Source: Candidatus Dojkabacteria bacterium
Lineage (GTDB): Bacteria; Patescibacteriota; Dojkabacteria; JAHIVN01
DNA: 64,000 nucleotides
Assembly: GCA_016932045.1 (NCBI GenBank)
Contig: JAFGDO010000002.1
Span: 2,553-66,552, forward strand
Direction of reading: 5' to 3'
In this document: positions 4,512 to 57,632 of the stretch, piece by piece
Numbering within the stretch: the first letter of the stretch is position 1
Layout: every line of letters begins with the position of its first letter
Notes under the pieces: model-generated
What the model saw: only the letters and a program-made list of their open reading frames with translations
The model's database searches: none
What the model was told of the DNA's origin: nothing
Translations under genes and position numbers: made by a program

Positions 4512-5345
4512 TCATGAATACGGAATTCCGAGAATTGTCTTTTTTATCATCCATTTGATTTCTTCAATTTTATCTACTGCTGCCTTTTCACCTATTTCAA
4601 TAATTCTTGTTTCTCCCAAGAATTTAAACATGGGTACATCTGGTACCCTTGGTTCGATAACTATTTCTGCTTCTTTGATATTGTATTTGGCAATATTGTA
4701 TCCCATTATATCCAGTGCAGCACTTACTATAGAAGAAACCGGTAACTTATCATCTTTACCTTCCTTATCTTTCGGGGGAAAGTGTTTCCAATTCAGACTT
4801 ACTGCGATGACCCTTTGAGCTCCCATATCTTTTACTGCCTTTACAGGTACCTGCTCAACCACACCCCCGTCAATTAGAAATCTTTTCCTTTTTTTGAAAG
4901 GAGAAAAAACACCCGGAACAGAACAACTTGTACGTATGGCTTCTGCCAGATTTCCGGTGTCTATGTAAACAGTTTCACCTGTGACTACATCAGCAGCAAC
5001 TGCCCGAAATGGAATCTTAGTATCTTCAACATTAATTTTACCAACCTGCTCTTTAATGAAATTTATGGCTTTACCTCCTTTAAATAAACCTGATACCAAA
5101 CTTGGATCAGAAAAAGCCCGAAGATAATCCTTGTAGCTTACGTTTTGTGCTAGCTCTTCTAATTCTCTGACGTTTTTCTTTGCAGCATACATACCACCAA
5201 TTAGAGCTCCTGCACTTGTTCCTGCTATAAAGTCTATTGGAATTTTATTCCGTTCTAAGACTTTTATGACTCCCAGGTGGGCAAGTCCACGCGCACCTCC
5301 GCCTCCAAGCGCTAATCCTATTTTACTTCTTCCGAAAAGCTTCAT
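4512..5345 (-). CDS. Patatin-like phospholipase
   Basis: Gly-rich oxyanion motif GLALGGGGARGLAHLGV, the GTSAG nucleophile elbow (GxSxG) and a DGG motif. Confidence 0.8.
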   Translation of the reverse strand: MKLFGRSKIGLALGGGGARGLAHLGVIKVLERNKIPIDFIAGTSAGALIGGMYAAKKNVRELEELAQNVSYKDYLRAFSDPSLVSGLFKGGKAINFIKEQVGKINVEDTKIPFRAVAADVVTGETVYIDTGNLAEAIRTSCSVPGVFSPFKKRKRFLIDGGVVEQVPVKAVKDMGAQRVIAVSLNWKHFPPKDKEGKDDKLPVSSIVSAALDIMGYNIAKYNIKEAEIVIEPRVPDVPMFKFLGETRIIEIGEKAAVDKIEEIKWMIKKTILGIPYS

Positions 5346-18929: not shown

Positions 18930-21674
18930 ATGAAAAAATCAAGAGTTTGGATTCTGTTGCTTTTTATTTTCCTAGTAGGTCTCGGCGGAGCCGCTGTATG
19001 GATCGGCTGGCGTCTTCAACAGGAAGAAGAAGTTATTCCACAGGAAAGCGAAGCTGCAGCAGGTGACCATCAATGTATAGGTTACAATAACAATCCAGAT
19101 GATTGGGGGCATGTTGATTTTTGTTTATCTGGTACGAGTACTGCTTGTAATGAAGCACAGGCAGAATACTATGCAGGGAAAGGTTGCAGAGGATGTTGTT
19201 CAAAGATGATCCCTTGTACTAAACAACAAGTTGATTATGACAATGATTACAAAGTAGTCGTATACGGTCCTAATCCTGGTGGAGGAGAGTGGTGTAGGGA
19301 GTATCTACCGGGAGATGATGGGAGTCGGAAGTGTGGACGAGACACGCCTGATCCTGATACTTGGGACTGGACAAATTGTACTGTGTGCGATGATGTCCAA
19401 GCGGAATGGGATTTTGATTCGCAGCCCGGGAAAGTTGTTTTAAGAATTACAAGTGCAGCTATGCACGATATGGACAATATAAATAGCTCACATAATCAAG
19501 ATGATGTGCCAGCGATAATGTCAAAGCAAAGAATGAGAGTCGAAATAAATAGATATGACGCAGGGGGCAATGTCATAGGTTCAGCACAGAATATCTCAGG
19601 ACAATTAGAGTTCTTACCAGATAATTGTTCTTTAACCTATAAACTTGGGAAAAGTAACGCTGGTTGCAACTATGGGAGAGACTGTGCTATTGATCCGAAC
19701 GATCTTTGTTGTGATGGAAATGGCCCGCGATGGGGAACGTGGAATGGGGGCTATAGGTGTAATTTATCAAATACTAGAGAATACACCTTCGATGTTGATC
19801 GCAACGCAGATAGTTATGGATATACTTTCTATGTAGAGGGTTTTAGTCCATTTACCAACTCACAGTGGAAGACGGCTGATACTTGCAAGGGGTTTGTGGA
19901 TGCACCTGAGCAGTTTAATTGCGGAGATCCCTGTACAAATCCTCAGGGATCTTGTGATGACGGGAGTAATTGTATTGATCTTAGAGATATTATTCCAGCA
20001 GGAGAAGAAGCTTGTGATGGATATGTGTGTTGTGTAGGAGATGATTTCATTGATGAATTTGGTAATGTGAATTGTCCTTTCAGCGAACATGTAGCTAGTG
20101 GATGTAGATGTCTTGAAACTATTCAGTGTGACAGTATGTCCTCACCTCAGGCAGTTGGAGATACTATCACGGTGCAGCAGGAGGGTGATACATTCGTGAT
20201 TACAGTACAGGGAACAGATGGTGATGGAACGATCAGACAGATCTCCATATGTTCAGCTGTTGCAAATCAGCCAGATGAGTATTATCGGAGGGGACTAGAG
20301 GTATGGAATTGTGAGGAAACTCAATCTGCTGATAATACTTTTACAATTACTCGAACTTATGCATCATTAGTCGACGGTCAGGGTGATGATGATGTTTTAA
20401 ATCCTGATGGACTGGATATTAGTGCAAACAGCATAGTGTTCGCAGCTAATTTATGGGATGAGCCGGATAGAAGTATATTTTGCTCATCAAATCCAGGCTA
20501 TGGCGATACATCTCATGGTATTTTATATGGGAATTATTGTTCTCAGGATCCTGCCGCTTGTGACCTGTGTAACTTAGGAACAAATAGCTGTAGGATGATT
20601 TTACAACTGGCAGAAGAAGAGTGCGATTGTACTTCGATCCAGAGAAGTCCTAGTGGTGATACGATTGCCCCAGGAAGTAATGTATGGGTTCAAGTTACTG
20701 ATTCTTGTGAGATAGGCTATAGTGAAGTCGAATGGTTTTGGAGCGAAGGAGAAACTGGTACGCCTCAGCAGACGAACTTCAGTGATAGGATACCTGGGCC
20801 AAGTGATGATCCTGAGCTGAACCATAGCGTGATTTTTTCCGTTCCCGTAACAGCAAGCGGGACAATATGCATTTGGGCACGAACTCAAGGTGAGGATGAT
20901 CCTGATTGCCGGGATTGTTTTAATATTGGAGGCGAAGAGGAACCAGCTTACGCAGCAGTAAAGACGAGCGAGATGGTATGTATAAATAATAATAGTGCAG
21001 CAAGGATAACATATAGAATTCATGTAAGGAATATATCAGGAGTAGTAGGTACAATTGATTATGTAGAAGACACATATGATTCAAGGATACAAACAAGCTG
21101 GGTAAGCGGTATAAGCCCGCTTCCATATGAGCACACAGGAAACGTGATAAGGTGGGATAATAATGATACTGGATATGTCCTGCAGCCAAATGATGGTGCA
21201 GCTGGTGGAGCAGATGAGATAGAGTTCAGCTATATAGTGACAGTACCATCAGAATATTTTGGCACGTGGGAGGGAGGAGTATTTGTACCGTATCAGTATA
21301 GGAATCATGCTGTCGTCAAGCCGAGAGACGAGGAACCCATAGAACTGGCAACAGTAGTAAGTATTCAATGTGCCGTCGGTACAGGTATTTTTAGCAGTGC
21401 AGTGAAGGATATGTTAATTGGTCTAATACTTATTCTGCTTGGATTGACTATGATAAGGATACATGAAAGTACCTATAAATACCTTATACCAATAGAATAT
21501 GCATATAAAGAGAGTGTTATAGGTCTGAAAAATGGTGTAAATATGGTTAGAACTGAATGCAAAGCTGTACTAGATAAGTGTAAAACGTTTGTGTTTGAGA
21601 GGTTTAAGCTTACAAGCAAAGAAAGATTTGAACGTAAAATTGTAAGAAGAGCAGAAAAGAAAAAAGGGACCTAG
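18930..21674 (+). CDS. Giant Cys-rich surface protein (914 aa) with N-terminal signal-anchor, DUF11-like C-terminal module, C-terminal TM helix and basic cytoplasmic tail
   Basis: N-terminus MKKSRVWILLLFIFLVGLGGAAVWIGWRL. More than 60 Cys in the ectodomain. C-terminal TYRIHVRNISG...DYVEDTYD resembles the DUF11 conserved repeat. Then a TM helix IGLILILLGLTMI and the tail ...SKERFERKIVRRAEKKKGT. Confidence 0.6.
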   Translation: MKKSRVWILLLFIFLVGLGGAAVWIGWRLQQEEEVIPQESEAAAGDHQCIGYNNNPDDWGHVDFCLSGTSTACNEAQAEYYAGKGCRGCCSKMIPCTKQQVDYDNDYKVVVYGPNPGGGEWCREYLPGDDGSRKCGRDTPDPDTWDWTNCTVCDDVQAEWDFDSQPGKVVLRITSAAMHDMDNINSSHNQDDVPAIMSKQRMRVEINRYDAGGNVIGSAQNISGQLEFLPDNCSLTYKLGKSNAGCNYGRDCAIDPNDLCCDGNGPRWGTWNGGYRCNLSNTREYTFDVDRNADSYGYTFYVEGFSPFTNSQWKTADTCKGFVDAPEQFNCGDPCTNPQGSCDDGSNCIDLRDIIPAGEEACDGYVCCVGDDFIDEFGNVNCPFSEHVASGCRCLETIQCDSMSSPQAVGDTITVQQEGDTFVITVQGTDGDGTIRQISICSAVANQPDEYYRRGLEVWNCEETQSADNTFTITRTYASLVDGQGDDDVLNPDGLDISANSIVFAANLWDEPDRSIFCSSNPGYGDTSHGILYGNYCSQDPAACDLCNLGTNSCRMILQLAEEECDCTSIQRSPSGDTIAPGSNVWVQVTDSCEIGYSEVEWFWSEGETGTPQQTNFSDRIPGPSDDPELNHSVIFSVPVTASGTICIWARTQGEDDPDCRDCFNIGGEEEPAYAAVKTSEMVCINNNSAARITYRIHVRNISGVVGTIDYVEDTYDSRIQTSWVSGISPLPYEHTGNVIRWDNNDTGYVLQPNDGAAGGADEIEFSYIVTVPSEYFGTWEGGVFVPYQYRNHAVVKPRDEEPIELATVVSIQCAVGTGIFSSAVKDMLIGLILILLGLTMIRIHESTYKYLIPIEYAYKESVIGLKNGVNMVRTECKAVLDKCKTFVFERFKLTSKERFERKIVRRAEKKKGT

Positions 21675-22903: not shown

Positions 22904-25446
22904 ATCATTTAAAAAATAAAACAATTTGTTTCATCTTTTTGTGTTTAGGAATTCTTGTATTCTCGTTTTTTCTTGTTATAAAGCCGAGTCCTGTATCTGC
23001 CGGTTCTGTACTTGATCATGAGTTTTATATAGAGATACCTACAGGTCGAAGAGTACCATTACAAGGAGCTTCGGTACATTCTGTAGGAGTTGATAATTAT
23101 GGTCAATGGGGGAATAAAGACTACATTACACGTTCAAATTATTGCGGTTATGGTAGTGCTGCAGGAGGAGCCCACTGCAGGACAAAAGCATCTTGCGATC
23201 ATTGGGGATATCATGCTCCATTTCTTCCAAAAAGTTACAATAGTGCATCAGACGTCTATACGCCAAGAGCGGATGTATATGGGTGGTGCGGGAATTTAGA
23301 TGCATCACATGCGCATTTCTATAATGGTCAAACGATGACACAGCGATTCCCTTGGTTTCCCTTTGAAAATGGGAATCCAAGAGGTTCGAGTACTTCATAT
23401 TGGACTGCTGAGATAGTTTCGCAGCAGAATAATAAGCTTCAATTATGGGGTAAAGCTCAGCCGGATGACCATGAAGCACGTAAAGCGACTGATGATTGCA
23501 GAAGAACGGACGAACGGGAAACTATATTGCAGGAATGGGGTAGATTAGACGATTTCCCGAACAAAGCTTCTTGGAAGCAGGGAGAGATTGTTTACGATGG
23601 AGTCGGAGGGAATGCTCTTCATGGAACCGTAAGATGGATTCTTCATGAAACACAGACTGTGTCAGACCTCAAGATAAGTGGCAAGGTTTATTGCCAAGAT
23701 GATGGAGATCCTACTCCTTATCCTGTTAATGGTGCAACTGTTTCTATATATAAAGATGGTGTGAAAGAAACTGTAGATGTTGCAACGAATGAAAGTGGAA
23801 ACTTTTCATATGATGCAAGATCATATGAGGGAGGTTTTGCTGTCAGATTTAAGAATTTACCAAGTGGGACTTTAAGAACCGGACTACCATATGATCAGAT
23901 GGTTGGTCCAACAGCTGTAAATTGTGCTAGTGGCGTTGTAACGGGTTGTCAAGAAGGTTCTCCTCCGGGAAGTTTCTGTGGGACGAACAATTTATCTTAT
24001 GAGTATTGCGGTCTTGGTAGTGGCAATCATTCAGGATTTGATTTCAGATATACTAATTGTTCAGCAGGATTGGTTTGTGAAAATTTGGCTTCAGATATTG
24101 ATCTTACCTCTATTAGCGAAGATGACTTAAGGGCGGAAGATATGGAAATTGCTATATCTGCAGAGATGAATGCAAATAATGTATCTGTAAGTTCAACTGG
24201 TGCCTATACTTATTACACAAACATCCCGGGTGCCTATTTCGCTGGTGATCCTGCTAATACTGGAAGCTATACAGATGGTCCAAATACGACAATTACAATT
24301 CCGGCAGGTACAAGTATTAGCGATGAAGACTACTTTGTCAGTGTAGTTATCCAGGGTAGCATAGGTTCAACTAATTATGCTTCTGGCTGCTATTCGACTG
24401 GAAATTGTGTACAAGGAGGTGAGAATTGTATTTTAGCATTTCAGCCTACAGCAGGAACGTGTGATTGCAGGAGTATGTCAGTTAGTCCTGATCCAACTAC
24501 AGTAAATCCTGTTGCTGGTTCAAATATTGTCTACCAGATAAATATTGCCGATACGAATGGAGTCCCGTGTAATGTAGAGGACAGTGAAATAAATTGGGAA
24601 GTATATGAGGGTAGTCCGACACTTGAAGTTATCGAGAGAGGTCCAACAACTGTTCCCGGGAATCCCGGACCGACTCACTATATTATATACAGAATTCCCG
24701 ATGGAGTTCCCGAAGGAACCCAGTATTGTGTCCGTGCCGAAGTGGATAATTTTGGAGTAAGAGAAGCGTGTAATGCTTGTTTTACGACAGGTACTGACGA
24801 GGTGCCTCTATTTGTTGCAGTAAAGACAAGTGAAGTTGTTTGTATTAATAACAATACAGCAGCACGAATTACTTATCGTATAAGAGTAAGAAATATATCG
24901 GGAATGGAGGGGATAATTGATTATGTTGAGGACACCTATGATTCAAGGATACAAACTAGTTGGGTGAGCAGTATTAGTCCGACTCCCTATGATCATACGG
25001 GGAATGTAATTAGGTGGGATAATAATGATACCGGATACACATTACAACCAAATGACGGAACTACGGGTGGAGCGGATGAGATGGAGTTCAGTTATATTGT
25101 GACAGTACCATCAGAATATTTTGGTACGTGGGAAGGTGGGGTATTTGTACCGTATCAATATAGGAATCATGCTATCGTCAAGCCAAGAGACCAAGGTCAG
25201 ATTGAACTCAGTACTGTTGTACAAATTCAATGTGCGGGTGTTACTACCGGTATTTTTGACAAAGCATTGACAAGTGTTTTGATAGGACTATTACTAGTTA
25301 TGTTTGGAGGAGTATTGCTAAAAGCTGATAGTTATGTTTATAGGTTCGTGCCTCAATTCAATTCTTATATTAAAAAAGTTATTCCTAGCAGGAAAGAAAG
25401 ATTTGAGAAAAAAGCGATAAAGAGAGTAGATGAGGGGGAGAAGTAG
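22900..25446 (+). CDS. Giant Cys-rich surface protein paralog (848 aa), signal peptide plus DUF11-like C-terminal module plus TM plus basic tail
   Basis: The C-terminal roughly 150 aa are about 85% identical at protein level to the 914-aa protein (VKTSEVVCINNNTAARITYRIRVRNISG...FGTWEGGVFVPYQYRNHAIVKPRD). TM helix LIGLLLVMFGGVLL and tail ...PSRKERFEKKAIKRVDEGEK. Confidence 0.6.
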   Translation: MNHLKNKTICFIFLCLGILVFSFFLVIKPSPVSAGSVLDHEFYIEIPTGRRVPLQGASVHSVGVDNYGQWGNKDYITRSNYCGYGSAAGGAHCRTKASCDHWGYHAPFLPKSYNSASDVYTPRADVYGWCGNLDASHAHFYNGQTMTQRFPWFPFENGNPRGSSTSYWTAEIVSQQNNKLQLWGKAQPDDHEARKATDDCRRTDERETILQEWGRLDDFPNKASWKQGEIVYDGVGGNALHGTVRWILHETQTVSDLKISGKVYCQDDGDPTPYPVNGATVSIYKDGVKETVDVATNESGNFSYDARSYEGGFAVRFKNLPSGTLRTGLPYDQMVGPTAVNCASGVVTGCQEGSPPGSFCGTNNLSYEYCGLGSGNHSGFDFRYTNCSAGLVCENLASDIDLTSISEDDLRAEDMEIAISAEMNANNVSVSSTGAYTYYTNIPGAYFAGDPANTGSYTDGPNTTITIPAGTSISDEDYFVSVVIQGSIGSTNYASGCYSTGNCVQGGENCILAFQPTAGTCDCRSMSVSPDPTTVNPVAGSNIVYQINIADTNGVPCNVEDSEINWEVYEGSPTLEVIERGPTTVPGNPGPTHYIIYRIPDGVPEGTQYCVRAEVDNFGVREACNACFTTGTDEVPLFVAVKTSEVVCINNNTAARITYRIRVRNISGMEGIIDYVEDTYDSRIQTSWVSSISPTPYDHTGNVIRWDNNDTGYTLQPNDGTTGGADEMEFSYIVTVPSEYFGTWEGGVFVPYQYRNHAIVKPRDQGQIELSTVVQIQCAGVTTGIFDKALTSVLIGLLLVMFGGVLLKADSYVYRFVPQFNSYIKKVIPSRKERFEKKAIKRVDEGEK

Positions 25447-25646: not shown

Positions 25647-25718
25647 TGAGGGCGAGAGGACTCGAACCTCCAACCTAACGGTTAAGAGCCGTTTGCTCTA
25701 CCATTGAGCTACGCCCCC
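25647..25718 (-). tRNA. tRNA-Lys (anticodon CUU)
   Basis: The reverse complement folds as a cloverleaf. Acceptor GGGGGCG/CGCCCUC (one G-U). D arm GCUC-AAUGGU-AGAGC. Anticodon stem AACGG/CCGUU with loop CUCUUAA. T arm GGAGG-UUCGAGU-CCUCU. Discriminator A. CCA not encoded. Confidence 0.8.
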
Positions 25719-25785
25719 GATTTAAATGTACTTTTAATTATATAGTAACTTCCCTTTTTGCTCTACTCCCGCTTCTCCCGCATAG

Positions 25786-25876
25786 CAAGATAAGAGCCGT
25801 TTGCTCTACAATTGTCCGCCCTAGGCGCCTGCCTGTCGGCAGACAGGGATCAGCCTTGGGCAGAAGCTACGCCCCC
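25786..25876 (-). pseudogene. tRNA-Lys 5'-half remnant (acceptor/D-arm/anticodon 5' side) interrupted by a 49-nt hairpin element
   Basis: Minus sense reads GGGGGCGUAGCUU, then a 49-nt insert, then CAAUUGUAGAGCAAACGGCUCUUAUC. This copies the first roughly 38 nt of the adjacent tRNA-Lys, but the 3' half is absent. Confidence 0.6.
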
Positions 25877-26026
25877 ATACTATGCTAAAGCTTCATATGG
25901 TAAACCTAAGCCTCTACTTTCATGATCAATAATCAATTTTCAATTAGAAATGAATAATTTTAGATTAGTAATTATTCACTCAGTAACGTAATAAGAGAGC
26001 AAGTATATCACAACTCCTTTAATTTC

Positions 26027-50994: not shown

Positions 50995-51123
50995 TGGGGC
51001 AGTGGCATATATAAAATAACATTTCTTTCGCCTAATTGCAAGATTATTTGGGCGTGTCAGCACGTTGACTATGTGGCTGCTAATATACTATTAGAGCAAA
51101 AAATTGGTTCATTGGATATTAAA

Positions 51124-51263
51124 GCAAAGTGCGCTCGACAGGACTCGCCTGTCCGCCTTGGGCGGAAACCTGTAAACCTGCTTTTGTCTGAGATAGCAAA
51201 GTGCGCTCGACAGGACTCGCCTGTCCGCCTTGGGCGGAAACCTGTAAACCTGCTCTTATCTGA
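51124..51263 (-). repeat. Two tandem 70-nt direct repeats, each a copy of the tRNA-Arg(UCU) 3' end (acceptor and T-arm 3' strands) carrying a 20-nt hairpin insertion
   Basis: Units gcaaagtgcgctcgacaggactcgCCTGTCCGCCTTGGGCGGAAacctgtaaacctgct... occur at 51124-51193 and 51194-51263, and the genuine tRNA starts at 51264 in the same phase. The units differ at 3 positions. Confidence 0.75.
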
Positions 51264-51273
51264 GATAGCAAAG

Positions 51274-51346
51274 TGCGCTCGACAGGACTCGAACCTGTAA
51301 CCTACTGCTTAGAAGGCAGTTGCTCTATCCATTGAGCTACGAGCGC
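51274..51346 (-). tRNA. tRNA-Arg (anticodon UCU)
   Basis: Acceptor GCGCUCG/CGAGCGC. D arm GCUC-AAUGGAU-AGAGC. Anticodon stem ACUGC/GCAGU with loop CUUCUAA. T arm ACAGG-UUCGAGU-CCUGU. Discriminator A. Confidence 0.8.
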
Positions 51347-51360
51347 ACTTTGCTTTGTCA

Positions 51361-51486
51361 AAACAAGAAAGGCAGTTGCTCCCGTGTCCCGTAAATTGAG
51401 CGTTAGCAAAATTCTACGGGATATCCAATTGTCAGCCCAAGGCTGCCTGTCCTGGTCTAAGCATGCCAGGGATGAGCCTAGGGCTC
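51361..51486 (-). repeat. tRNA-Arg 5'-half-like remnant plus 55-nt structured hairpin element (homologous to the insert in the tRNA-Lys remnant)
   Basis: Minus sense reads GAGCCCUAGGCUCAUCCCUGG...CCAGGACAGGCAGCCUUGGGCUGA-CAAUUG, then a diverged GGGAGCAACUGCCUUUCUU that resembles the tRNA-Arg D-stem/anticodon stem. Confidence 0.5.
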
Positions 51487-51629
51487 AAGCAATCGGCATA
51501 CACTATCTAACTCTATGATTATAATAAAAATATATGATAAACTCAATTATTATAGAGATTACTGGCGCTTAAATTGTATAATTGGATGAAAAAGATTAAA
51601 ATTAGTATATTCTTTTTTCAGAAAAGCTT

Positions 51630-57607: not shown

Positions 57608-57632
57608 TAAAAAAAATCCCCGCCTTGGGGAT
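57608..57632 (-). promoter_or_regulatory. Intrinsic terminator/attenuator hairpin inside the 5' leader of the ThrRS-like gene
   Basis: Minus-sense AUCCCC-AAGGC-GGGGAU followed by UUUUUUUU, about 85 nt upstream of the start codon. A second hairpin GGUAA...UUACC overlaps the putative RBS region. Confidence 0.5.

What the first reader, a model, noticed from the sequence alone, without database searches (positions are those of the whole stretch)
25786..25876. A related roughly 50-nt structured hairpin element sits at the D-loop position of tRNA 5'-half remnants at two loci 25 kb apart (tRNA-Lys remnant here; tRNA-Arg remnant at 51361-51486)
Seen directly. Upstream (in transcript sense) of intact tRNA-Lys there is a second copy of its first 13 nt (GGGGGCGUAGCUU). 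Then comes a 49-nt insert CUGCCCAAGGCUGAUCCCUGUCUGCCGACAGGCAGGCGCCUAGGGCGGA, then CAAUUG, then the D-stem/anticodon 5' strand copy. At the tRNA-Arg(UCU) locus, a similar insert GAGCCCUAGGCUCAUCCCUGG...CCAGGACAGGCAGCCUUGGGCUGA is again followed by CAAUUG and a diverged D-stem/anticodon-stem copy. The two inserts are same-orientation homologues. Both share the GCCC(A/U)AGGCU...AUCCCUG...CAGGC...CC(U/A)(A/U)GGGC frame and fold into the same long hairpin (outer 9-bp stem with one mismatch at the same position, inner CCUG(U/G)...CAGG hairpin). They could be a tiny mobile (MITE-like) hairpin that targets tRNA D-loops, remnants of a non-canonical tRNA intron, or a recombination-site family. A CCAAGGC-containing motif also occurs in the 20-nt insert of the tRNA-Arg 3' repeats and in the loop of the thrS-like leader terminator (57616-57632).
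Basis: seen in the sequence. Interest (0 to 1): 0.6.

Follow-up and report, generated by a model that had tools for sequence, protein, structure and literature searches.

The report
Mobile mini-hairpins inside tRNA gene copies
The two ~50-base GC-rich hairpins are real copies of a tiny, apparently mobile palindromic DNA element found across many candidate-phyla-radiation (CPR) bacteria. It repeatedly lands at exactly the same spot (between bases 12 and 13) of leftover front-half copies of tRNA genes that sit just upstream of the working tRNA.

Summary
The window comes from a Candidatus Dojkabacteria (CPR) genome. Upstream of tRNA-Lys(CUU) and tRNA-Arg(UCU) lie 5'-half copies of each tRNA. Each copy is interrupted between nt 12 and 13 (GCT^CAAT) by a 50/56-nt GC-rich element, "E".

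E is not a private curiosity. Pattern scans and a covariance model found it at about 16 independent intergenic sites in at least six CPR lineages, at up to 96% identity and with unrelated flanks. Rfam has no such family.

E is modular: two 15-nt mini-hairpins (TCNNCC-NNN-GGNNGA) flank a 20-nt palindrome (CCTGCC..GGCAGG). Each module also occurs alone.

Orthologous pheS–tRNA-Arg(UCU) loci of one CPR clade show:
- empty sites;
- a mini-hairpin pair;
- full E, inverted, all at nt 12^13.

There is no target duplication. One end abuts CAAT in 6 of 16 sites.

E is not an intron, because the interrupted copies lack 3' halves. The best reading is a nested miniature palindromic insertion element, resembling mitochondrial GC clusters, with a preference for the tRNA D-arm. 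No transposase was identified. Why every 5' copy carries a hairpin, and why the longer copies end in the anticodon loop, remains open.

The parts
25815..25864 (-). Element E, copy W1 (50 nt). It consists of mini-hairpin A (TCTGCC-CAA-GGCTGA), then the 20-nt palindrome B nested after the TC of the second unit (CCTGTCTGCCGACAGGCAGG), then the rest of mini-hairpin C (CGCC-TAG-GGCGGA).
   Evidence: sequence; model R1 scores 74 bits, though this copy is a training member; 48 of 50 bases identical to L014, a different MAG; fold -30.6 kcal/mol, z = -3.3.
25865..25876 (-). Copy of tRNA-Lys nt 1-12 (GGGGGCGTAGCT), left flank of E.
   Evidence: 12 of 12 identical to the intact tRNA-Lys.
25791..25814 (-). 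Copy of tRNA-Lys nt 13-36 (CAATTGTAGAGCAAACGGCTCTTA), right flank of E. Homology stops in the anticodon loop.
   Evidence: 23 of 24 identical.
25647..25718 (-). Intact tRNA-Lys(CUU), 72 nt downstream of the end of the 5' copy.
   Evidence: ARAGORN. (Rfam tRNA, 72.8 bits).
51432..51487 (-). Element E, copy W2 (56 nt, diverged): TGAGCC-CTA-GGCTCA, then a B-like hairpin CCTGG..CCAGG with a 9-nt loop, then ..GCCTTGGGCTGA.
   Evidence: R1 scores 45.9 bits (training member). The same sequence is present in an independent Logan contig, L038 113-168.
51488..51497 (-). Diverged copy of the 5' end of tRNA-Arg (GCCGATTGCT), left flank of E. It lies about 20 nt downstream of a promoter-like site.
   Evidence: TTGAGT-17-TATAAT at 51546-51518 on the minus strand.
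51365..51431 (-). Rest of the tRNA-Arg(UCU) 5' copy. CAATTGGATA (nt 13-21) is followed by a second, unrelated 38-nt hairpin insert at nt 21^22 (51421-51384), then GGGAGCAACTGCCTTTCTT (nt 22-~36).
   Evidence: GAGCAACTGCCTT is 13 of 13 identical to the tRNA. (fold).
51273..51346 (-). Intact tRNA-Arg(UCU).
   Evidence: (77.6 bits).
51123..51266 (-). Two 72-nt tandem units downstream of tRNA-Arg. Each is a 3'-half copy of the tRNA with a 19-nt insert in the T-loop (GGTT^CGAG). The insert starts with the 15-nt mini-hairpin TCCGCC-CAA-GGCGGA (51166-51152 and 51238-51224).
   Evidence: D3: 2 copies, 97% identity. (R1: 15.7 bits, E = 0.006 each); the identical 15-mer occurs in L039 and L045.

Best explanation
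**What it is.** E is a non-coding, GC-rich, nested miniature palindromic insertion element, that is, selfish mobile DNA. It is endemic to the AT-rich genomes of CPR/Patescibacteria.

**How it is built.** Smaller palindromic units also exist on their own:
- a 15-nt mini-hairpin of the form TCNNCC-NNN-GGNNGA, usually found as a head-to-tail pair;
- a 20-nt palindrome B (CCTGCCYNCCGGNRGGCAGG) nested inside the second unit.

**How it behaves.**
- The 50-nt composite spreads as one unit, in either orientation and without target-site duplication.
- It prefers a site next to 5'-CAAT.
- The D-arm of many tRNA genes reads ..GCT^CAATGG.. or ..GTT^CAATGG.., so E lands between nt 12 and 13.
- Such insertions survive only in redundant 5' copies of a tRNA gene. 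These copies sit between the old promoter and a regenerated or replaced intact tRNA.
- E is probably transcribed as part of the pre-tRNA leader, where it forms stable hairpins.

**Shown:** family membership, modularity, insertion point, presence/absence in orthologous loci, and flank preference.

**Inferred:** mobility as DNA, lack of host function, and the order of events. The enzyme is unknown.
For: 1. **Dispersed family.** The strict pattern gave 11 loci in GTDB genomes and about 11 true loci in JGI metagenomes. These are Saccharibacteria, Paceibacterota, Uhrbacteria, Magasanikbacteria and Moraniibacteriota MAGs, and the window itself is Dojkabacteria. That makes about 16 independent sites with unrelated housekeeping neighbours. 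R1 scores run 55-80 bits.
2. **Conservation ignores phylogeny.** W1 matches L014 at 48 of 50 bases, and mean column identity is 79%. The 3' unit decays freely in L010, L016, L017 and L027. The second unit in L045 has three transitions that break its stem.
3. **Modularity.**
   - The same nt 12^13 site holds a 30-nt mini-hairpin pair in L039, L041 and L045, and the full inverted E in L016.
   - B occurs alone in L013, L018, L034 and L020, and at 60 sites in viral contigs.
   - A single mini-hairpin sits in the window's T-loop inserts.
   - Mini-hairpins number 32 in 254 kb against 0.12 in shuffles.
4. **Empty orthologous sites.** In L042 and L043 the conserved promoter abuts tRNA nt 1.
5. **At least four independent hits at nt 12^13:** W1 Lys, W2 Arg, the second remnant of L016, and the pair shared by L039, L041 and L045.
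6. **Flank bias.** TTG^/^CAA adjoins E at 8 of 16 sites and ATTG^/^CAAT at 6 of 16. One search computed P of about 1e-6 on 7 and 5 sites, because W2 was mis-set by 2 nt and missed.
7. **No match to any Rfam family**.
8. **Solitary copies** often sit 0-8 nt after a stop codon, or even supply the stop codon (L010, L012, L014, L020). This is typical of REP/MITE-like elements.
Against: - No transposase or recombinase was identified, and there is no target-site duplication.
- Copy number is very low: 2 in this 64-kb window and 3 strict copies in a 746-kb contig. That is unlike classical REP or MITE families.
- No empty-site comparison was obtained for a solitary (non-tRNA) copy, because the UDG relatives were not syntenic.
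- All 10 upstream 5' tRNA copies found among 39 CPR tRNA loci carry a hairpin insert, and none is bare. This hints that insertion and duplication are coupled rather than sequential.
- Mini-hairpin stems differ between orthologous loci by compensatory changes. That could reflect selection for structure.
- The strict search pattern forced conservation of 23 positions, so family diversity is underestimated.
Confidence: 0.55

Rival explanations
1. Scar or site of a tRNA-gene replacement process. A double-strand break or site-specific recombination in the tRNA gene (for example by a homing endonuclease cutting at the anticodon loop) is repaired by inserting a new promoter plus tRNA copy. This leaves the old 5' half, and sometimes the 3' half, behind. 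The palindromes would be recombination sites or repair products at those junctions, not independent transposons.
For: - Six longer 5' copies end in or at the anticodon loop, about nt 35-39: W1, W2, L016-Arg, L016-Met, L041-Met and L099.
- W2 looks like an intact tRNA inserted into the anticodon loop of an older gene: 5' half, intact gene, then two 3' halves.
- In L016 and L045 the intact gene is a different allele from the remnant, and the remnant keeps the relatives' sequence.
- Homing-endonuclease genes lie in the same neighbourhoods: a LAGLIDADG ORF between tRNA-Met and tRNA-Asp in L016 only, and in L099 a GIY-YIG ORF directly after a 5' copy, followed by a copy carrying a group I intron.
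- Every 5' copy carries a hairpin.
Against: - 12 of 16 E sites have no tRNA-like sequence within 200 nt, so E also moves, or is placed, on its own.
- No endonuclease or integrase gene lies near either window locus.
- L047-Met and L047-Arg look like plain tandem duplications of promoter plus 5' part, with copy-number variation between strains.
- Identical 15-mers and 20-mers in distant lineages argue for a specific sequence family rather than repair products.
Confidence: 0.2
2. A functional structured leader. The hairpins, together with the tRNA-like 5' segment, are selected parts of the pre-tRNA transcript. They could act as processing or stability signals, or regulate maturation by competing with the real 5' half.
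For: - A promoter-like site lies directly upstream of the W2 remnant. In L039 and L041 the remnant occupies the place where the tRNA starts in the empty orthologues. The hairpins are therefore very probably in the leader RNA.
- Stems are kept through compensatory changes between orthologous mini-hairpins.
- GC-rich palindromes flanking mitochondrial tRNA genes in Neurospora were proposed as processing signals (Yin et al. 1981, listed in the references of PMC4478555; the proposal itself is from own knowledge).
Against: - Close relatives do without the hairpins entirely (L042, L043).
- Content, number and orientation of the hairpins differ among near relatives.
- Units decay (L045, L010, L016).
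- Most E copies are not next to tRNAs, and they occur in both orientations relative to neighbouring genes.
- Whole-element covariation is weak.
Confidence: 0.13
3. Remnant of a non-canonical tRNA intron at the D-loop position.
For: The insert interrupts tRNA-like sequence at a fixed position and forms a hairpin.
Against: - The interrupted copies lack the whole 3' half, and each has an intact uninterrupted gene beside it.
- There is no group I or group II signal in Rfam.
- Most family members are not in tRNA context.
- The insert occurs in both orientations.
Confidence: 0.02
4. Chance similarity of GC-rich low-complexity runs, or an assembly or adapter artefact.
For: The sequences are palindromic and GC-rich and contain several restriction sites. 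Logan contigs break inside both tRNAs.
Against: - Orthologous copies are present at the same genomic position in independent projects and assemblers, with substitutions between them: L014/L021, L020/L022, L013/L023/L031 and L015/L028/L034.
- The genome-contig scan returned 11 stretches, all with the full conserved element including the part not specified by the pattern. My own rough estimate of chance matches for that pattern was only a few.
- W2 is present in an independent Logan contig.
Confidence: 0.02

Closest known systems
GC clusters of yeast mitochondrial DNA (e.g. the 42-nt GC42 family; PMC4478555), and related double-hairpin and repetitive hairpin-forming elements of fungal and sponge mitochondria (Paquin et al. 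2000; PMC2800124)
   Same: - Short (30-50 nt) GC-rich palindromic hairpin elements scattered in the intergenic DNA of an AT-rich, compact genome.
- Presence/absence polymorphism between relatives.
- No encoded protein and an unknown mobilising enzyme.
- "Merger and shuffling" of palindromic modules into composites (PMC4478555, section 18), matching the nesting seen here.
   Different: - Those elements are in organelles and have tens to hundreds of copies.
- GC42 has an AG target that appears as two sets when the element is present (PMC4478555, section 17).
- Here the host is a bacterium, there are 1-3 strict copies per genome, no duplication occurs, the flank preference is CAAT, and there is a recurrent exact hit at tRNA nt 12^13.
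[quoted passage not shown]
   Same: Conserved GC-rich palindromes physically associated with tRNA genes in an AT-rich genome, and probably present in precursor transcripts.
   Different: Those palindromes flank complete tRNA genes. Here the palindromes interrupt partial tRNA copies at fixed internal positions (nt 12^13, 15^16, 21^22 and the T-loop).
REP elements and REPINs mobilised by RAYT transposases (PMC3116915; PMC3733652)
   Same: - Extragenic imperfect palindromes.
- A REPIN is two inverted units separated by a spacer that form one long hairpin, which parallels unit A + B + unit C in E.
- They are often found just after stop codons.
   Different: - REPs carry a GTAG or CGTC head (PMC3733652). 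E's ends are TCNGCC..GGCNGA.
- REPs are high-copy and confined to one genome lineage together with its RAYT gene. E is low-copy and nearly identical across CPR classes.
- No RAYT gene was seen, though this could not be searched genome-wide.
Small dispersed repeats (SDR, 21-27 nt) of Nostoc punctiforme (Elhai et al. 2008, Genome Res 18:1484; reference found in PMC3116915; the paper was not readable here, so the description is from memory)
   Same: Very small (about 20-nt) mobile repeats that nest within each other and within hairpin contexts, with no known enzyme.
   Different: SDRs are in cyanobacteria, have different sequences and are high-copy. No tRNA-position specificity is known to me.
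tRNA-linked repeats and partial tRNA copies next to tRNA genes (e.g. the 178-bp repeats after E. coli tyrT that contain the last 19 nt of the tRNA; attL/attR tRNA fragments left by integrases) — own knowledge
   Same: Direct repeats of part of a tRNA gene lie beside the intact gene. The 72-nt tandem units after tRNA-Arg here and the ~100-nt units after tRNA-Arg(CCG) in L013 are of this kind.
   Different: Known cases concern 3' ends and carry no inserted palindromes. Here 5' copies lie upstream, each with a hairpin in the D-arm, and there is no integrase and no island between the repeats.

Membership tests
MITE (miniature inverted-repeat transposable element) | Terminal inverted repeats | tested here: met
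   The ends TC(A/C/T)GCC... and ...GGC(T/G)GA are inverted copies of each other. The reverse strand of every copy also scores with model R1, at 12-28 bits.
MITE (miniature inverted-repeat transposable element) | Target-site duplication flanking the element | tested here: not met
   W1 is a clean 50-nt insertion into GTAGCT^CAAT when compared with the intact tRNA. No consistent direct repeat was found in the 16 flanks.
MITE (miniature inverted-repeat transposable element) | A related autonomous element with the same ends that encodes a transposase | not testable with these tools
   Only stretches of 8 kb or less around each copy could be read. Neighbours are housekeeping genes. The duplicated L011/L019 region is a paralogous segment, not an IS.
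REP / REPIN (RAYT-mobilised) | Conserved GTAG or CGTC tetranucleotide head next to the palindrome (PMC3733652) | tested here: not met
   The bases immediately adjoining the hairpin-A end vary, although 4 of 16 read ATTG. GTAG directly adjoins only L012.
REP / REPIN (RAYT-mobilised) | High copy number within one genome plus a RAYT gene | tested here: inconclusive
   There are 2 copies in 64 kb and 3 strict copies on a 746-kb contig. The presence of a RAYT gene could not be checked genome-wide.
IS200/IS605-type palindrome-associated elements | No target duplication, and insertion 3' of a fixed tetra- or pentanucleotide in one orientation | tested here: inconclusive
   - There is no duplication, so that part is met.
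- ATTG^ adjoins one end in 6 of 16 sites and TTG^ in 8 of 16, with P of about 1e-6.
- However, either end of E can be the adjoining one, and half of the sites lack the motif.
tRNA intron (bacterial group I, or archaeal bulge-helix-bulge) | Interrupts an otherwise complete tRNA gene and is removed to give a functional tRNA | tested here: not met
   The copies end in the anticodon loop and have no T-arm or 3' acceptor strand. ARAGORN and the Rfam tRNA model find only the neighbouring intact genes.
tRNA intron (bacterial group I, or archaeal bulge-helix-bulge) | Group I catalytic core | tested here: not met
   An Rfam E-value scan of 25720-25920 found only a spurious hit at 13 bits. As a positive control, the same tool finds a real group I intron in L099 at 86 bits.
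Integron attC site | R''/R' core sites (RYYYAAC ... GTTRRRY) bounding an imperfect palindrome | tested here: not met
   By inspection of alignment A2 and the flanks, the ends are TCNGCC/GGCNGA and no GTTRRRY is present.
Integrase att-site remnant at a tRNA gene | Direct repeat of a tRNA segment bounding an integrated element that carries, or once carried, an integrase | tested here: not met
   The repeats are separated by only 14-72 nt. No integrase-like ORF was found near either locus.
Any Rfam 15 RNA family | Score at or above the gathering threshold | tested here: not met
   Only four tRNAs in the window pass threshold, and nothing was found at the element with E up to 10.
Mitochondrial GC-cluster-like palindromic elements (a functional analogy, not a sequence family) | Short GC-rich palindrome in an AT-rich genome, insertion polymorphism between relatives, modular merging | tested here: met
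   - The element is 61-78% GC against 37% for the window.
- Orthologous loci are empty, hold a pair, or hold the full element.
- The modules occur separately.
- There is no sequence relationship, and the AG duplication reported for GC42 is absent.

The most novel reading that the evidence does not exclude
Hairpin insertion and tRNA-gene regeneration may be two halves of one previously undescribed process.

- Tiny palindromic units (15-20 nt) invade the loops of tRNA genes: the D-arm at nt 12^13, 15^16 and 21^22, the variable loop, and the T-loop.
- The gene is then rebuilt downstream from a duplicated or foreign template, possibly with help from homing endonucleases that cut at the anticodon loop.
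- This leaves stacked "fossil" 5' copies between the old promoter and the current gene.

That would amount to a dedicated tRNA-gene turnover system in CPR bacteria and their phages. Palindrome B would be a very broad-host-range mobile unit only 20 nt long.
Probability: 0.2. Interest if true: 0.85.

Novelty: new variant of a known kind. Interest (0 to 1): 0.62.

Why it matters
CPR/Patescibacteria have about 1-Mb genomes that are thought to be almost free of repeats and mobile DNA. Three aspects make this finding useful.

1. **A new element in an unexpected place.** A family of 15-50-nt nested palindromes is shared at more than 90% identity between CPR classes. It would be a new, extremely small kind of horizontally spreading bacterial element, the counterpart of mitochondrial GC clusters.

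2. **A very precise target.** The repeated hit at one phosphodiester bond of tRNA-like DNA (nt 12^13) gives a sharply defined target from which the unknown enzyme could be sought.

3. **A record of tRNA-gene turnover.** The layered 5' copies show that tRNA genes in these organisms are duplicated, and in at least two lineages swapped for a different allele, in situ. This affects tRNA annotation and assembly: contigs break here. It also affects ideas about how essential single-copy genes survive attack by mobile DNA.

Tried and rejected
- **Rfam.** The gathering scan of the window and an E-value scan of the element found no family.
- **Viral contigs, E core pattern.** Only a conserved phage coding sequence matched by chance.
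- **Viral contigs, mini-hairpin pair junction.** Four hits, all in GC-rich contigs with no second hairpin beside them. These were not pursued.
- **Whole-element covariation.** The sequence is too conserved to discriminate the three-hairpin fold from the long-hairpin fold.
- **Relatives of the window's own loci.** The neighbouring wHTH protein has no close homologue other than itself. Proteins at the window ends are not on record. Logan contigs stop inside the tRNAs.
- **Empty-site test for the solitary copy beside UDG (L013).** Relatives have murB-udg instead, so they are not syntenic.
- **Target-site duplications.** Not found for E. Around palindrome B there is only a weak excess of flanking direct repeats: 17% versus 4% with 7 nt or more.
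- **T-box in the thrS-like leader.** None was found by Rfam, and the hairpin there is terminator-like.
- **A transposase next to duplicated E copies (L011/L019).** The region is a paralogous segment with an ORF that has no Pfam hit.
- **Considered and dropped by inspection:** CRISPR or CAST homing spacers, TIGR arrays, integron attC sites, and sequencing-adapter artefacts.
Full report
**1. What is in the window**

The window has 37% GC. Its wHTH protein is named by NCBI as Candidatus Dojkabacteria, a CPR/Patescibacteria lineage. ARAGORN and Rfam find four tRNAs, all on the minus strand.

Lys locus, read on the minus strand:
- 25876-25865 is GGGGGCGTAGCT, which equals nt 1-12 of tRNA-Lys(CUU).
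- 25864-25815 is a 50-nt GC-rich insert, called E (copy W1).
- 25814-25791 is CAATTGTAGAGCAAACGGCTCTTA, which matches nt 13-36 at 23 of 24 positions.
- Unrelated AT-rich sequence follows. The intact tRNA-Lys lies at 25718-25647.
- Compared with the intact gene, this is a clean insertion between T12 and C13 (GTAGCT^CAAT) with no duplicated bases.

Arg(UCU) locus:
- A promoter-like TTGAGT-17-TATAAT site is followed by a diverged acceptor piece, GCCGATTGCT.
- A 56-nt E-like insert (copy W2, 51487-51432) follows, again between GCT and CAAT.
- CAATTGGATA comes next, then a second unrelated hairpin inserted at nt 21^22, then GGGAGCAACTGCCTT (13 of 13 identical to the tRNA).
- The intact tRNA follows.
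- After it come two 72-nt tandem units. Each is a 3'-half copy carrying the 15-nt hairpin TCCGCCCAAGGCGGA in its T-loop.

GCCCWAGGC occurs six times in the window against 0.31 expected, always in these structures.

**2. E is a family, and it is not confined to tRNAs**

- A strict pattern taken from the part shared by W1 and W2 was scanned over one genome per GTDB species. It returned 11 loci, all in CPR-type MAGs: Saccharibacteria, Paceibacterota, Uhrbacteria, Magasanikbacteria, Moraniibacteriota, two unclassified "bacterium" records, and one low-GC MAG labelled Gammaproteobacteria.
- The JGI metagenome scan returned 17 stretches, of which about 11 are true copies.
- The part of the element that the pattern did not specify (..RGGCGCCTNGGGCGGA) is conserved as well.
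- After removing orthologous duplicates there are about 16 independent insertion sites.
- Neighbours are ordinary genes: transketolase, infB, pheS, glycosyltransferases, UDG and an ABC ATPase.
- Several copies sit 0-8 nt after a stop codon, or supply the stop codon themselves.
- W1 differs from the L014 copy at only 2 of 50 positions.
- No Rfam family matches.
- A covariance model (R1) finds no further copy in the window except the two T-loop mini-hairpins, at 15.7 bits.
- In the other loci R1 finds a few partial copies that consist of the central hairpin alone.
- Only 4 of 16 sites (W1, W2, L016, L013/L031) have tRNA-derived sequence within 200 nt.

**3. Anatomy**

RNAalifold predicts two hairpins. 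Hairpin A is TCAGCC-CAA-GGCTGA. Hairpin B is CCTGCC-loop-GGCAGG, with one covarying pair and a loop of 4-16 nt.

The 3' part is an inverted, more degenerate copy of the hairpin-A unit. The whole element is therefore an imperfect palindrome that can also be drawn as one long hairpin. The three-hairpin fold pairs 94% of cells and the long-hairpin fold 87.5%. Neither shows much covariation, because the sequence itself is so conserved.

The modular nature became clear from orthologous loci (section 4):
- E equals [15-nt unit][15-nt unit], with the 20-nt palindrome B inserted after the TC of the second unit.
- The 15-nt unit has the format TCNNCC-NNN-GGNNGA. Thirty-two such hairpins occur in 254 kb of CPR sequence against 0.12 in shuffles.
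- Across variants, four of the six stem pairs change on both sides. Part of that set was selected by a regex that required complementarity, so this is supportive rather than decisive.

**4. Comparative series at one locus**

L016 (MAG WY5.bin86) carries E in inverted orientation, again exactly at nt 12^13 of a 5' copy of its own tRNA-Arg(UCU). PheS lies next to this locus, so its homologues were used to fetch the same locus from relatives.

| Locus | PheS identity | State |
|---|---|---|
| L042, L043 | 82% | Empty: the conserved promoter region abuts tRNA nt 1 |
| L041 | 89% | nt 1-12, TCTCCCTACGGGAGA + TCTGCCGAAGGCAGA, nt 13-21, 14-nt spacer, intact gene |
| L039 | 92% | nt 1-12, TCCGCCCAAGGCGGA + TCAGCCTCGGGCTGA, CAAT, 53-nt spacer, intact gene |
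| L045 | 76% | The same pair with a decayed second unit; the downstream intact tRNA is a different allele |
| L047 / L048 | 72% | Two / one tandem units: nt 1-15, two other GC hairpins, nt 16-25, 46-nt spacer |
| L016 | query | An old layer containing one of the L047-type hairpins (CTCCGAC..GTCGGAG), plus a newer layer with full E |

In L016 the newer remnant keeps the anticodon-stem sequence of the relatives, while the functional gene now has a different one.

The tRNA-Met next door behaves the same way:
- L039 and L042 are empty.
- L016 and L041 each have a 5' copy of their own, mutually different, tRNA-Met with a CCCGCCCG..CGGGCGGG hairpin at nt 21^22.
- L047 has a duplicated promoter plus nt 1-12, followed by a hairpin-rich insert.

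Among 39 distinct CPR tRNA loci in hand, ten have an upstream 5' copy. Eight were found by the automated scan and two diverged ones (W2, L045) by eye. Every one carries a hairpin insert.

**5. Target preference**

One end of E abuts TTG^/^CAA in 8 of 16 sites and ATTG^/^CAAT in 6 of 16. One search gives P of about 1e-6; that script missed W2 because its coordinate was set 2 nt off. Either end of E can be the adjoining one.

In the tRNA copies the CAA(T) is demonstrably tRNA sequence (C13 A14 A15 U16), so it is target rather than element. This explains why the D-arm can be hit. It does not by itself explain at least four independent hits on that one site, given the thousands of CAAT sites in intergenic DNA. 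A wider sequence or structural context is probably recognised, for example folded single-stranded tRNA-like DNA.

Other hairpins sit at nt 15^16, nt 21^22 and T-loop 55^56. These positions are also in or at the edge of cloverleaf loops.

**6. Palindrome B is much more widespread**

The pattern CCTGCCYNCCGGNRGGCAGG matched 52 viral-contig stretches, giving 60 distinct sites at 33-72% GC. Most are the perfect palindrome CCTGCCTGCCGGCAGGCAGG, which would not be expected if the four degenerate positions varied at random. There is no consistent target duplication.

Three of these sites are in tRNA sequence:
- L087 is a complete tRNA-Met with B as a long variable arm. ARAGORN calls a 92-nt tRNA.
- L073 has two B units at the T-stem/T-loop junction.
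- L099 has a tRNA 5' copy with B at nt 21^22. It breaks in the anticodon loop and runs straight into a GIY-YIG ORF. A second copy follows, interrupted by a bona fide group I intron (Rfam 86 bits) that contains an ORF with a sub-threshold HNH match.

**7. Interpretation**

The best-supported reading (confidence about 0.55) is that E is a nested miniature palindromic insertion element. It is a bacterial analogue of the GC clusters of yeast mitochondria, which are also about 40-nt GC-rich hairpins in AT-rich DNA, polymorphic between strains, modular, and without a known enzyme (PMC4478555).

Its D-arm location follows from a CAAT-adjacent target preference, plus the fact that only redundant tRNA copies can tolerate the insertion.

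Evidence favouring selfish DNA over function:
- units decay (L045, L010, L016);
- close relatives lack the element altogether;
- orientation varies.

What remains unexplained:
- No bare 5' copy was seen.
- Six longer 5' copies end within the anticodon loop.
- The intact gene is sometimes a different allele.
- W2 looks like an intact gene dropped into the anticodon loop of an older one.

These points, together with homing-endonuclease genes in the same neighbourhoods (a LAGLIDADG ORF in L016 only; GIY-YIG and an intron ORF in L099), keep a rival alive at about 0.2. In that rival, remnants arise from breaks or recombination at the anticodon loop, and the palindromes are part of that process.

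A functional-leader hypothesis (about 0.13) draws on the likely transcription of the hairpins and on stem-preserving differences between orthologues. An intron origin, or an artefact, is effectively excluded.

**8. Novelty**

The literature searches available here found no description of such elements in CPR bacteria, nor of palindromes inserted at fixed internal positions of partial tRNA copies.

The kind of element is known: REP/REPIN, MITEs, mitochondrial GC clusters and cyanobacterial SDRs. This instance differs in several ways:
- its size hierarchy (15, 20, 30 and 50 nt);
- near-identity across CPR classes;
- very low copy number;
- absence of target duplication;
- single-bond specificity in tRNA-like DNA.

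I therefore rate it a new variant of a known kind.

Noticed in passing
window 51123-51266 (minus strand): Two 72-nt tandem units lie directly after tRNA-Arg(UCU). Each is a 3'-half copy of the tRNA, from the anticodon loop to the discriminator base, with a 19-nt T-loop insert. Together with the upstream 5' copy, the locus reads as 5' half, intact tRNA, then two 3' halves, as if an intact gene sat inside the anticodon loop of an older one.
   Followed up: partly
window 51384-51421 (minus strand): A second, AT-richer 38-nt hairpin (TCCCGTAGAATT..AATTTACGGGA) is inserted at nt 21^22 of the Arg 5' copy. Unrelated GC hairpins occupy the same position in the tRNA-Met 5' copies of L016 and L041, and palindrome B occupies it in L099.
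   Followed up: partly
L016 200-345; L016 7576-7692 and the matching stretch in L039; L047 ~4640-4776: A conserved ~120-170-nt module lies downstream of several different tRNAs (Phe, Asp, Arg). It consists of:
- an inverted T-arm fragment;
- GGGAAAGGGG..GTTTTCCC;
- a GG(C/T)GGA..hairpin piece;
- at its end, a copy of the 3' end of whichever tRNA lies upstream.

It looks like a miniature integrative (CIME-like) element or a patchwork pseudo-tRNA. In L016-Phe it contains two mini-hairpins.
   Followed up: no
L013 2340-2590 (plus strand): Downstream of tRNA-Arg(CCG) are two ~101-nt tandem units, each ending in a copy of the tRNA 3' end. A third 3'-end copy carries palindrome B inside the acceptor strand (CCTGCCAAG|CCTGCCTGCCGGTAGGCAGG|GGCAC). 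The full E follows about 40 nt further on. The relative L031 has only a terminator hairpin and E.
   Followed up: partly
L053-L104 (viral contigs): The 20-nt palindrome CCTGCCTGCCGGCAGGCAGG occurs at 60 distinct sites in viral contigs of 33-72% GC, with several copies on some contigs (for example IMGVR_UViG_3300037242_000417). It often lies between short repeated motifs. I know of no description of it.
   Followed up: partly
L087 2239-2330: A complete tRNA-Met(CAU) on a 64%-GC viral contig carries palindrome B in its variable loop, giving a 92-nt class-II-like tRNA by ARAGORN. It may still be functional.
   Followed up: no
L099 478-1480: The region contains, in order:
- a tRNA 5' copy with B at nt 21^22, ending in the anticodon loop;
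- a GIY-YIG ORF (Pfam 2.9e-15);
- a second copy of the same 5' exon;
- a group I intron (Rfam 86 bits) containing an ORF with a sub-threshold HNH match;
- the 3' exon.

The contig also carries a recR-like gene (by eye), so it may be cellular rather than viral.
   Followed up: partly
L016 6784-7479: A free-standing LAGLIDADG endonuclease ORF lies between tRNA-Met and tRNA-Asp. It is absent from the orthologous spacer in L039 and L041. L042 has an NlpC/P60 gene there.
   Followed up: partly
L019 1212-1259; L016 4241-4267; L047 4299-4450: Another GC-hairpin family, CTCCGAC..GTCGGAG, is shared between a Saccharibacteria MAG and the L016/L047 clade. In L047 it is paired with AGCCGAC..GTCGGCT at nt 15^16 of tRNA-Arg 5' copies.
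   Followed up: no
window 26151-26123 and 51546-51518 (minus strand): Both tRNA transcription units have the same promoter-like hexamers, TTGAGT-17-TATAAT. tRNA-Arg(UCG), the Lys 5' copy and tRNA-Lys may form one operon.
   Followed up: no
window 20915-21214 vs 24777-25076: A 300-nt direct repeat at 73% identity links the adjacent 914-aa and 848-aa ORFs. Neither ORF has a Pfam hit, so they are probably paralogous surface proteins.
   Followed up: no
window 57616-57632 (minus strand): The hairpin TCCCC-AAGGC-GGGGA followed by T8 lies about 90 nt upstream of the short thrS-like gene. It looks like an attenuator or terminator, but Rfam finds no T-box. It is not a member of the E family according to model R1.
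   Followed up: partly
L001 and L038 (Logan contigs of SRR13394437): Independent contigs from this run stop inside tRNA-Lys and inside tRNA-Arg(UCU), at about window positions 25701 and 51320. This is consistent with the partial tRNA repeats breaking short-read assemblies.
   Followed up: no
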